Positions 30,132-31,112 of a stretch of DNA of 64,000 nucleotides are shown here, one piece after another (positions within the stretch are counted from its first letter, which is position 1; the number at the start of each line of letters is the position of its first letter). The DNA comes from a virus (lineage: Duplodnaviria; Caudoviricetes): the IMG/VR virus record IMGVR_UViG_2791354774_000003. One strand, written 5' to 3'. The notes below the pieces were generated by a model. That model had not been told where the DNA came from. It did no database searches and saw nothing but the letters and a program-made list of their open reading frames with translations. A program made the position numbers and the translations under genes.

Positions 30132-31112
30132 TTAGTGGGTGAGAGCGGCGCCTGCCATTTGGGTGCCGTCCATCAGATGGCCACCCTCACCCTTCCTCCA
30201 TTGGGACCAGAGGTCCCGGAGAAATCGCTTCTCGACGTAGCGCTGCGCCCGATTGTGCGCGTGCGCCTTGGTCTCGACCCGTTCGGCCTCGTAGACCTTC
30301 CGTGCGTCGTAAATTACCTTGAGCGGCCCGCCAGCCTTCACGATGCAGGCACCGAGGTTCCACATCACCGAGCGCCGAGCCGGGCTGTACCCGTGGTCAA
30401 GCGCCTCGACACCACCGACACGCCGCTGCCGGCCGCCATCAGGCATCACGGCCAGCCCCATGCGCTTCCATAGTTTGGCGGGATTGCCGTAGGAGCCGAG
30501 ATCCCCAGCCTCGCCGACGATGGCCGCCAGAGACAGCAAGCCGACGCCGCGTGTGGCCTCAACCCACGGCGCGACGGGTAGCCCCTTCGCCAAGGCCACT
30601 AGCCGCTTCTCAACAGCCCTGCGGTGGCGCTCGACACCATCTCGGGCTTCGGTCAGAGGAAACATTGCAGCCAGGGCAACCTCACCCATGGGATGAGAGC
30701 CTTTGCCGATGGCGGCACCGTAGATCTTGTCCGCTTCCTTTTTGTCGCCGCCCTCAGCGAGGCGACGGCACAGGGCCTTTGCCTGCAAGGTCAACGACTT
30801 CTCGGCGCGGTGCCACGCCTGCCGGCGCCGCCATTGTTCACGGACCTCTGCAATAAGGTCGGCGAGGTCGGCAGGGGGTAGTTGGATAACGCGTCTGCCA
30901 TGGCCGGCCTCGCCTTCGCCGGCCTCACGGTCGGCGATCTCGGTATCATGGGCGACGAGGCTGGCAGTGGTTGTATGGGTGCCACGAAGGCACTGGCCAG
31001 CCTCGTCATCGGCGTTACCGCCGATTGGGTAAAGGGGTGCGGTGGGCGACGCATCGTGATGGGGTGGCAGATGTTCAACGGTCGCCCGACCGCGCCGGGA
31101 CGTGCCCGGCAT
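30132..31112 (-). CDS. TasA-like Nop/IS110-Tnp-domain RNA-binding protein without a nuclease domain
   Basis: Coiled coil, then RGVGLLSLAAIVGEAGD...PAKLWKRMGL...YDARKVYE...HAHNRAQRYVEKRFLRDLW; no DEDD/RuvC or HNH; ATG at 31112 with GGAG RBS (start uncertain). Confidence 0.8.
   Translation of the reverse strand: MPGTSRRGRATVEHLPPHHDASPTAPLYPIGGNADDEAGQCLRGTHTTTASLVAHDTEIADREAGEGEAGHGRRVIQLPPADLADLIAEVREQWRRRQAWHRAEKSLTLQAKALCRRLAEGGDKKEADKIYGAAIGKGSHPMGEVALAAMFPLTEARDGVERHRRAVEKRLVALAKGLPVAPWVEATRGVGLLSLAAIVGEAGDLGSYGNPAKLWKRMGLAVMPDGGRQRRVGGVEALDHGYSPARRSVMWNLGACIVKAGGPLKVIYDARKVYEAERVETKAHAHNRAQRYVEKRFLRDLWSQWRKGEGGHLMDGTQMAGAALTH
30137..30192 (-). ncRNA. TIGR-like guide unit U5 (inside the 3' end of the Tas ORF)
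   Basis: GGGTGAGGGTGG-CCA-TCTGATGGA-CG-GCAC-CCA-AATGGCAGG-CG-CCGCTCTCACCC. Confidence 0.8.
30861..30914 (-). ncRNA. TIGR-like guide unit U4
   Basis: GGCGAGGCCGG-CCA-TGGCAGACG-CG-TTAT-CCA-ACTACCCCC-TG-CCGACCTCGCC. Confidence 0.8.
30954..31007 (-). ncRNA. TIGR-like guide unit U3
   Basis: GACGAGGCTGG-CCA-GTGCCTTCG-TG-GCAC-CCA-TACAACCAC-TG-CCAGCCTCGTC (perfect 11-bp stem). Confidence 0.85.
31039..31093 (-). ncRNA. TIGR-like guide unit U2 (variant second box CCC)
   Basis: GCGGTCGGGCGA-CCG-TTGAACATC-TG-CCAC-CCC-ATCACGATG-CG-TCGCCCACCGC. Confidence 0.7.

What the first reader, a model, noticed from the sequence alone, without database searches (positions are those of the whole stretch)
30132..31112. 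Four guide units lie inside the Tas reading frame (dual-coding mRNA)
Seen: the plausible ATG with an RBS (31112, 7 nt after the upstream stop) precedes U2-U4, and the frame stays open through ~85 codons of array. U5 encodes the final residues GEGGHLMDGTQMAGAALT. U3, U4 and U5 share one codon phase (EAGQ, EAGH, EGGH). Inference: excising guides would destroy the Tas mRNA, giving built-in negative feedback, and spacer choice would be limited by stop-codon avoidance.
Basis: partly seen in the sequence, partly recalled or inferred. Interest (0 to 1): 0.72.

Follow-up and report, generated by a model that had tools for sequence, protein, structure and literature searches.

The report
Guide RNAs written inside tasA gene
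A prophage gene for a nuclease-free RNA-guided DNA-binding protein (TasA of the TIGR-Tas family) carries four of its own six hairpin guide-RNA units inside its reading frame; this looks real, but a 2026 preprint already described the layout, so it is one more example.

Summary
Observation confirmed. On the minus strand, the open frame 30132-31112 holds four 54-nt stem-loop guide units: U2-U4 in its first 84 codons and U5 in its last 19. U1 and U6 lie outside it.

The protein is TasA-like. Its best fold matches are TIGR-TasR and TasH, and it has no nuclease domain.

The window alone proves little: an open frame of that length has a chance of about 0.21. Relatives decide it.
- Of 54 distinct intervals between the upstream gene's stop and the tas core, 42 have no stop in the tas frame. 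The other two frames give 10 and 4, and about 5 are expected.
- 15 of 16 close loci have no ATG, GTG or TTG between the last unit and the conserved core.
- An in-frame start preceded by GGAGG overlaps the upstream gene's end in 17 of 17 close loci.

Either start leaves U2-U4 inside the frame.

Avoidance of stop codons in spacers is supported. The proposed negative feedback is untested.

The kind is in print (Xu et al. 2026 preprint). This scan has also reported it in other genomes. It is a new member of a known kind.

The parts
30132..31136 (-). tasA reading frame counted from the conserved coupled start GTG 31136-31134 to TAA 30134-30132 (334 codons).
   Evidence: Frame open. An in-frame ATG/GTG 5-14 nt before the upstream stop occurs in 17 of 17 close loci. 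There is no in-frame ATG/GTG/TTG between 31112 and TTG 30788.
31143..31147 (-). GGAGG Shine-Dalgarno-like site, 6 nt before GTG 31136
   Evidence: Read. The same GGAGG or a near variant precedes the coupled start in the 17 loci printed. It also encodes part of the upstream protein's C-terminus, so its conservation has two possible causes.
31110..31112 (-).
   Evidence: In relatives the same motif reads GAGATC more often than GAGATG, so it is not conserved as a start.
31039..31093 (-). Guide unit U2 (stem with one bulge), inside the frame, in a phase different from U3-U5
   Evidence: (42.9 bits)
30954..31007 (-). Guide unit U3, inside the frame, phase 0 (reads DEAGQ...)
   Evidence: (54.2 bits)
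30861..30914 (-). Guide unit U4, inside the frame, phase 0. It ends 4 nt before the conserved core, and its 3' stem arm encodes ADLA at the start of the first helix.
   Evidence: (53.6 bits). A unit at this same place (-54 to -60 nt) occurs in 16 close loci.
30186..30872 (-). Folded Nop-type core of TasA (residues 81-309 counted from ATG 31112)
   Evidence: AlphaFold2 gives pLDDT above 90 for most of it. Foldseek top hits are TIGR-TasR 9mty (E 4e-7) and TasH. The profile matches 9mty_A at E 4e-16.
30138..30191 (-). Guide unit U5, inside the frame, phase 0. It encodes the last 18 residues but one; the stop follows 4 nt after it.
   Evidence: (46.9 bits). Residues 311-326 have pLDDT below 50.
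30054..30107 (-). Guide unit U6, downstream of the tasA stop, non-coding
   Evidence: 53.2 bits
31776..31829 (-). Guide unit U1, upstream of the companion gene, non-coding
   Evidence: 45 bits. The companion gene has its own conserved ATG and GGAG, and the upstream frame closes within 4-18 codons in 5 relatives.
31120..31644 (-). Companion gene (174 aa, no family found). Its last codons overlap the likely tasA start.
   Evidence: Homolog directly upstream of tas in 17 of 17 close loci. No Pfam or PHROG match.
31094..31122 (-). Leader of U2: an A/T-rich motif whose TAA is the companion's stop, then a small hairpin
   Evidence: the hairpin is in the minimum-energy fold. Like leaders lie at 31832-31856 (before U1) and 30109-30134 (before U6).
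30786..30788 (-). TTG where a 218-aa form of the protein begins; probably too short
   Evidence: P0011 is 218 aa, 100% identical, and carries the mark of a protein the window itself encodes. It begins at MQAKALCRR and lacks about 22 nearly invariant residues.

Best explanation
This is a prophage-borne stem-loop TIGR-Tas system with a nuclease-free effector, TasA.

Each 54-nt unit is a 12-bp stem closing a loop. The loop holds two 9-nt spacers, each between a CCA (box C) and a UG (box D).

Shown by comparison with relatives: tasA has no start codon of its own next to its folded core. Translation most likely starts at GTG 31136 (GGAGG 6 nt upstream), overlapping the last codons of the companion gene. 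ATG 31112 is the less likely alternative. The ribosome then reads U2, U3 and U4 as a disordered N-terminal extension of about 85-90 residues, then the Nop-type core, then U5 as a disordered tail. The same DNA therefore encodes guides and protein. Selection on the protein reading is limited to keeping the frame and avoiding stops.

Inferred, not shown: the operon is one transcript. TasA dimers bind the units and host RNases trim them into guides. A transcript whose U2-U4 are bound or cut can no longer give full-length TasA, so guide production and TasA synthesis compete and TasA limits itself. By analogy with tested TasA proteins, the RNP then binds DNA matching both spacers and represses transcription.
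For: Family:
- Foldseek top 10 matches are all TasR or TasH structures (E 4e-7 to 1e-4), followed by IS621.
- The profile matches 9mty_A at E 4e-16.
- Residues 1-78 and 311-326 have pLDDT below 50, and there is no nuclease domain.
- Units carry CCA/CCG-N9-UG/CG twice, matching box C = CCA and box D = UG (Faure 2025, passage).
- Stem covariation is strong.
- 124 of 127 model hits in 46 sources lie on the tas strand.

Translation through the array:
- In 15 of 16 close loci with a unit abutting the core, no ATG/GTG/TTG lies at or after that unit. The exception is L031.
- The proximal array regions of 16 loci total 989 codons. Stops in frames 0/+1/+2 are 0/9/37, with 23.4 expected per frame (my sum of its rows).
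- 42 of 54 distinct intervals of 80 nt or more between companion stop and tas core are stop-free in the tas frame, against 10 and 4 in the other frames and 5.1 expected. In those 42 intervals (4522 codons) the stop counts are 0 against 84 and 183.
- Of 25 close intervals, 24 are stop-free. 23 have a length of 1 mod 3, spread over 22 distinct lengths in the set.
- A coupled in-frame start occurs in 17 of 17 close loci, as ATG or GTG, although the overlapping companion residues differ.
- Control: the companion gene has a conserved ATG at its own core.
- Relatives L074, L080 and L091 have an ATGA overlap and the core 18 nt later. This is an array-free state of the same coupling.
- Units map to disordered parts, as Xu 2026 section 5 describes.
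Against: - There are no expression, small-RNA, ribosome or protein data.
- For the window alone the open frame is unremarkable (P about 0.21).
- The extension shows no codon-usage signature. GC3 is 0.67 against 0.77 in the core, and spacer third positions are not G+C-enriched (54 of 120 inside the ORF against 52 of 96 outside).
- A 218-aa form starting at TTG 30788 is on record for this DNA.
- 12 of 54 intervals have in-frame stops. One is a fairly close relative with a long array (L094, 67% identity, 3 stops), so the layout is not obligatory in the family.
- Loci are related, so the P values overstate independence.
- The GGAGG and the GTG also lie in companion coding sequence.
- Only 13 of 21 unit-to-unit spacings are multiples of 3.
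- The U5 overlap is not beyond chance, and one search found no unit overlapping the tas 3' end in 5 close loci (L002, L003, L007, L021, L023).
- Twelve-base-pair G+C-rich stems in a coding region could hinder ribosomes.
Confidence: 0.7

Rival explanations
1. Same dual coding, but translation starts at ATG 31112, 7 nt after the companion's stop, and not at GTG 31136.
For: ATG is the strongest start codon. A GGAG lies 10 nt upstream. An ATG at the same motif position is present in L004, L019 and L023, and a TTG in L018.
Against: The motif reads GAGATC or similar in most of the 17 loci, so this start is not conserved. The upstream overlapping ATG/GTG with GGAGG at 5-8 nt is present in all 17.
Confidence: 0.25
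2. The array is an untranslated leader. TasA starts after U4 at a non-canonical codon, or at TTG 30788 as in the 218-aa form on record, and the open frame upstream has no meaning.
For: A 218-aa form is on record. The extension is disordered, variable and lacks codon bias. Distant relatives start 6-63 nt before the core with arrays outside the ORF.
Against: TTG 30788 removes about 22 nearly invariant residues of the first helix, which has pLDDT above 90. There is no ATG/GTG/TTG between U4 and the core. An untranslated leader would not need 42 of 54 stop-free intervals or interval lengths held to one class mod 3.
Confidence: 0.1
3. The DNA is dual-coding, but guides and mRNA are separate molecules. 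Guides come from promoters of their own or from a fraction of transcripts, and TasA synthesis is not limited by guide excision, so there is no feedback.
For: Xu 2026 states that both routes remain possible (discussion passage). U1 and U6 lie outside any ORF, so guides can be made without touching the tasA frame.
Against: The consensus scan finds only one sigma-70-like site in 29900-33000, at 32628-32600 upstream of the operon, and none inside it. This is weak evidence, since alphaproteobacterial and phage promoters may differ. TasA binding to units in its own 5' coding region would be expected to hinder ribosomes.
Confidence: 0.3
4. Chance: in DNA of 65-70% G+C, long open frames are common and the overlap means nothing.
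For: For the window alone P is about 0.21.
Against: Frames +1 and +2 of the same regions carry 9 and 37 stops against 0. Stop-free intervals number 42 of 54 against 5.1 expected.
Confidence: 0.03

Closest known systems
Bifidobacterium longum TasA (BlTasA) and the intragenic stem-loop arrays of the TIGRFinder survey (Xu et al. 2026, bioRxiv 10.64898/2026.09.09.750476; I read sections 5 and 11 and passages)
   Same: Nuclease-free TasA. [quoted passage not shown] The units fall in disordered parts. A link between guide maturation and Tas translation is suggested there too.
   Different: In BlTasA the embedded unit maps to the wedge loop inside the Nop domain and was seen by small-RNA sequencing. 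Here the units make up the whole N-terminal extension and the C-terminal tail, with no RNA data. I could not see the preprint's figures, supplements or its TIGRSafari resource, which may already cover this clade.
Stem-loop TIGR array with TasA from a Peromyscus gut contig (Faure et al. 2025, PMC12045711, section 9 read)
   Same: TasA without a nuclease. [quoted passage not shown] Subarrays are split by other sequence.
   Different: That text describes the subarrays as separated by an intergenic region and does not mention an overlap with coding sequence.
Dual-repeat TIGR-TasR and TasH (PDB 9mty, 9w04 and others)
   Same: Best structural matches of the core. Same CCA and UG anchors around 9-nt spacers.
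   Different: Those have RuvC or HNH nuclease domains, constant edge and loop repeats and 36-nt guides. Here there is no nuclease, and a covarying 12-bp stem replaces the edge repeat.
IS110/IS621 bridge-RNA recombinases
   Same: Related RNA-binding fold (Foldseek E about 1e-2). Some sources name homologs 'IS110 family transposase' or 'transposase'.
   Different: There is no DEDD/RuvC-like catalytic domain and no Pfam transposase hit. The gene is a fixed member of a prophage operon with guide units, not an insertion sequence.
Autoregulation of archaeal L7Ae through a kink-turn in its own mRNA (recalled; not checked in any call)
   Same: An RNA-binding protein of the box C/D world binding its own message would give the kind of feedback proposed here.
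   Different: That site is in a 5' untranslated region and is not a guide RNA. Here the sites would be functional guides inside the coding region.

Membership tests
TIGR-Tas, stem-loop type with TasA | Effector with the Tas/Nop-type RNA-binding fold | tested here: met
   The Foldseek top 10 are all TasR/TasH chains (E 4e-7 to 1e-4). The profile of A1 matches 9mty_A at E 4e-16. The model core has pLDDT above 90.
TIGR-Tas, stem-loop type with TasA | TasA subtype: no HNH or RuvC nuclease domain | tested here: met
   No Pfam domain passes its cut-off. Residues 1-78 before the core are disordered. The folded part is about 229 residues.
TIGR-Tas, stem-loop type with TasA | Guide units with two spacers of about 9 nt, each between box C (CCA) and box D (UG) | tested here: met
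   One search prints the six units as CCA/CCG-N9-TG/CG, then 4 nt, then CCA/CCC-N9-TG/CG. The definition comes from Faure 2025. Several boxes are degenerate (CCG, CG).
TIGR-Tas, stem-loop type with TasA | A variable but palindromic stem in place of the edge repeat | tested here: met
   The 12-bp stem is paired in 97.3% of cells. 10 of 12 pairs show compensatory change, and 0 of 500 shuffles reach the score (alignment fitted to the model).
TIGR-Tas, stem-loop type with TasA | Units on the tas strand, clustered around tas | tested here: met
   Six units within 1.8 kb around tasA in the window. 124 of 127 hits lie on the tas strand in 46 sources.
TIGR-Tas, stem-loop type with TasA | Units expressed and processed into guide RNAs bound by Tas | not testable with these tools
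   No RNA holder listed.
TIGR-Tas, stem-loop type with TasA | RNA-guided DNA binding or repression at sites matching both spacers | tested here: inconclusive
   No target with 1 mismatch or fewer in the host genome. The 4 sites with 2 mismatches equal the control geometries, which give 2-4. Natural targets are unknown.
Intragenic (dual-coding) tigRNAs as described by Xu et al. 2026 | Units inside the tas coding sequence without breaking the frame | tested here: met
Intragenic (dual-coding) tigRNAs as described by Xu et al. 2026 | Units correspond to disordered protein segments outside the Nop fold | tested here: met
   pLDDT is below 50 for residues 1-78 and 311-326. Only the 3' arm of U4 reaches the first helix.
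IS110-family transposase (name given by some sources) | N-terminal DEDD (RuvC-like) catalytic domain and a mobile-element structure | tested here: not met
   No transposase domain in Pfam at E up to 1. The N-terminus is disordered. The gene has a conserved operon position next to the companion gene in 17 of 17 close loci.

The most novel reading that the evidence does not exclude
In this prophage clade tasA has given up a start codon of its own. It is initiated at a start coupled to the companion gene's stop, and every ribosome must read through the whole proximal guide array.

The array would have grown by in-frame insertion from an array-free ancestor in which the companion's stop and the tas start overlapped as ATGA. 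Such array-free relatives exist (L074, L080, L091).

Each transcript would then either be translated or be cut into guides. That would make TasA dosage self-limiting and would filter which spacers can exist: none with an in-frame stop.
Probability: 0.3. Interest if true: 0.55.

Novelty: new member of a known kind. Interest (0 to 1): 0.36.

Why it matters
It gives a clean, high-G+C example, conserved across many relatives, of one stretch of DNA serving as both guide-RNA array and protein-coding sequence. The comparative numbers show that the frame is kept by selection and not by chance.

For annotation, gene callers cut such tasA genes short or pick arbitrary starts. The coupled start and the guide units explain the odd, variable N-termini of hundreds of 'hypothetical' or 'transposase' proteins.

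For people engineering TIGR-Tas, it warns that native loci may tie effector dosage to guide processing. It also points to a simple test: place a stop codon in a spacer.

It does not open a new kind, because the arrangement is already in a 2026 preprint.

Tried and rejected
- **Pfam** on the 326-aa protein gave only sub-threshold noise. Rfam on 28000-34000 gave nothing relevant.
- **Expression:** The look-up of sequencing runs listed no RNA holder. I did not lay reads, because contigs cannot show RNA ends.
- **Targets:** I searched the host genome (5.94 Mb) for spacer A, a gap of 0-2, then the reverse complement of spacer B. I derived this geometry from Faure 2025's cleavage rule. No site had 1 mismatch or fewer, and counts at 2-3 mismatches equalled the control geometries. 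I therefore make no claim about targets.
- **Codon-position G+C** of the extension and of the spacers showed no coding signature. I take this as showing that the peptide itself is not under selection, not as evidence against translation.
- **Equal codon phase of all units:** only 13 of 21 spacings inside the ORF are multiples of 3. I rely instead on the interval-length and stop counts.
- **U1 inside the companion gene** (as earlier notes found in other genomes): rejected here.
- **U5 overlap as selected:** not supported (P=0.11).
- **Literature:** the search 'tigRNA' + 'intragenic' found only the Xu preprint. A second search on coupling and feedback terms was too broad to be informative. Supplements were not opened, and they and TIGRSafari may bear on novelty.
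- **Weak model hits** in the window at 30705-30758 and 32379-32432 (16.2 and 15.2 bits, E about 0.4-0.6) were not counted as units.
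Full report
**What is there.** On the minus strand, a frame runs from ATG 31112 to TAA 30134-30132 and gives 326 aa.

Six 54-nt units align without gaps: U1 31829-31776, U2 31092-31039, U3 31007-30954, U4 30914-30861, U5 30191-30138 and U6 30107-30054. Each unit is a 12-bp stem closing a 30-nt loop. The loop reads CCA (or CCG), 9 nt, UG (or CG), 4 nt, CCA, 9 nt, UG. Faure et al. [quoted passage not shown] They also describe stem-loop arrays in which a variable palindrome replaces the edge repeat (section 9).

U2-U4 fall in codons 7-84 of the frame. U5 encodes GEGGHLMDGTQMAGAALT, followed by H and the stop. 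U3, U4 and U5 are in the same codon phase; U2 is in another.

**The units are real RNA elements.**
- A covariance model built from the six units (R1) found 75 matches at E of 0.01 or less in 48 related loci.
- A second model built from 31 units (R2) found 127 matches at E of 0.05 or less in 46 sources, 124 of them on the tas strand.
- On the 31-unit alignment the stem is paired in 97.3% of cells. 10 of 12 pairs show changes on both sides, and 0 of 500 shuffles reach the covariation score. With the partner slid by 1-3 columns, only 39-60% of cells pair.
- That alignment was fitted to the model, which favours the structure. The slide control speaks against an artefact.
- The 301 nt from 31150 to 30850 fold with z = -6.4. 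The minimum-energy fold shows the U2 and U3 stems and three small leader hairpins.

**The protein is a TasA.**
- Pfam finds nothing above its cut-offs.
- An AlphaFold2 model built on 33 sequences has a helical core (residues 81-309, mostly pLDDT above 90). Residues 1-78 and 311-326 have pLDDT below 50.
- The ten best Foldseek matches in the PDB are all TIGR-TasR or TasH structures (E 4e-7 to 1e-4). IS621 recombinase follows at about 1e-2.
- A sequence profile matches the TasR chain 9mty_A at E 4e-16.
- There is no nuclease domain, so this is the TasA type.
- The neighbours are phage baseplate and tail genes, and 31 relatives lie on viral contigs. The system is prophage-borne.

**Is the array really translated?** The window alone cannot tell. 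From base composition, 79 codons without a stop have a chance of about 0.21. The relatives settle it, on five lines of evidence.

1. *No nearby start.* In the window there is no in-frame ATG, GTG or TTG between 31112 and TTG 30788. Starting at 30788 would remove about 22 nearly invariant residues of the first helix. In 16 close loci (core identity 64% or more) a unit sits at the same place as U4, ending just before the conserved core. In 15 of these 16, no canonical start lies at or after that unit. L031 is the exception.

2. *Stop counts by frame.* The proximal array regions of 16 loci total 989 codons. They hold 0 stops in the tas frame against 9 and 37 in the other two frames. About 23.4 would be expected per frame from composition (my sum of its rows).

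3. *A wider, unselected set.* After adding metagenome loci, I measured every distinct interval between the companion's stop and the tas core, without reference to any gene call or unit call.
   - Of 54 intervals of 80 nt or more, 42 are stop-free in the tas frame. The other frames give 10 and 4, and 5.1 are expected.
   - In those 42 intervals, 4522 codons hold 0 stops, against 84 and 183 in the other frames.
   - Among the 25 close intervals, 24 are stop-free. 23 have a length of 1 mod 3, spread over 22 distinct lengths in the set (88 to 433 nt among those I listed).

4. *A conserved start.* In 17 of 17 close loci an in-frame ATG or GTG lies 5-14 nt before the companion's stop, preceded by GGAGG or a near variant. 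The start stays ATG or GTG while the companion residues that overlap it change. In the window this is GTG 31136-31134, with GGAGG at 31147-31143.

5. *A control.* The companion gene behaves like an ordinary gene. It has a conserved ATG with GGAG right at the start of its conserved sequence, and the frame upstream closes within 4-18 codons in five relatives. U1 is therefore non-coding.

Within units, the tas-frame reading has 0 stops in 31 units inside the ORF. There are 5 stops in 22 units outside it, read in the same unit phase (Fisher P=0.009).

**What speaks against, and the limits.**
- The extension has no coding signature beyond the open frame. GC3 is 0.67 against 0.77 in the core, and spacer third positions are not G+C-rich.
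- This fits a passenger peptide. Distant relatives start 6-63 nt before the core and do without the extension.
- Twelve of 54 intervals have in-frame stops. One is L094 (67% identity), which has 8 model hits at E of 0.05 or less upstream of or abutting its core. The layout is therefore common but not obligatory.
- The loci are related, so the P values overstate independence. Only 13 of 21 unit spacings inside the ORF are multiples of three.
- For U5, the frame runs through the whole C-terminal unit in 9 of 10 loci that have one. That is not beyond chance (P=0.11). In one search, five close loci (L002, L003, L007, L021, L023) have no detected unit overlapping the tas 3' end. The U5 overlap is real on paper, but nothing shows that it is selected.
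- A 218-aa form starting at TTG 30788 is on record for this DNA. I think it is too short.
- No RNA data were available.

**How it most likely works.** Shown by sequence comparison: tasA is translationally coupled to the companion gene, and the ribosome reads U2-U4, and probably U5, as disordered segments.

Three loci (L074, L080, L091) have an ATGA overlap with the core 18 nt later. This suggests that arrays expanded in frame inside the 5' end of an already coupled gene. That is my inference.

Also inferred: there is one operon transcript from a promoter-like site at 32628-32600. TasA binds its units, and host RNases trim them. Binding or cutting of U2-U4 separates the start from the core, so TasA limits its own synthesis.

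Xu et al. 2026 show that TasA proteins act as RNA-guided repressors (abstract). They leave open whether intragenic guides come from the tas transcript or from internal promoters. I found no target of the six guides in the host genome.

**Comparison with what is known.** Xu et al. 2026 (sections 5 and 11) make four relevant statements:
- Such units correspond to disordered regions.
- This may link guide maturation to translation. They also show embedded guides of BlTasA by small-RNA sequencing.

A full-text search for 'tigRNA' with 'intragenic' returns only that preprint. This scan has also reported the same layout in other genomes (8 of 13 matching notes were shown).

I could not see the preprint's figures, supplements or TIGRSafari, so I do not claim these points are new.

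**Verdict.** This is a new member of a known kind, of moderate interest.

Noticed in passing
window 31847-31856, 31113-31122, 30125-30134 (minus strand): The stop codons of three successive genes (the 133-aa ORF, the companion gene and tasA) are each the TAA of an A/T-rich leader motif. A small hairpin and then a guide unit (U1, U2, U6) follow. In this G+C-rich RNA it is the only A/U-rich stretch, so it may be the processing site. That is a guess.
   Followed up: partly
L074, L080, L091 (17-nt interval between companion stop and tas core): Three distant relatives have the companion stop and the tas start overlapping as ATGA, with the core beginning 18 nt later. No array lies between. This looks like the array-free state of the same gene pair.
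   Followed up: partly
L039 1796-1850, L045 3244-3297, L046 3289-3342, L010 3040-3093: In distant relatives the unit model also hits inside the folded part of tas, 66-237 nt after the core start (30-39 bits). All four hits lie inside the open frame and three share the tas codon phase. This resembles the internal (wedge-loop) guide reported for BlTasA.
   Followed up: no
L094 773-1551 and L059 832-1551: Two relatives (61-67% core identity) carry long upstream arrays (8 and 9 model hits at E of 0.05 or less). They have 3 and 8 stops in the tas frame, so there the array is at least partly outside the ORF.
   Followed up: partly
window 30786-30788: A 218-aa version of the protein starting at this TTG is on record for this DNA. 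It lacks nearly invariant residues and is probably a mis-called start. Gene calls for homologs range from 218 to 435 aa for the same reason.
   Followed up: yes
window 29100-29809 (plus strand): A HigB-like toxin (Pfam E 1e-15) and an HTH antitoxin-like gene lie next to the locus. A small DUF4926-like ORF (29806-30051) converges on U6.
   Followed up: no
window 31854-32255 (minus strand): The 133-aa ORF ahead of U1 begins with a twin-arginine-like signal (RRGFLRG followed by a hydrophobic stretch). It has no Pfam or PHROG match.
   Followed up: no
window 31120-31644 (minus strand): The 174-aa companion gene lies directly upstream of tas in 17 of 17 close loci and in many distant ones. It matches no Pfam or PHROG family. 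Its role with TasA is unknown.
   Followed up: partly
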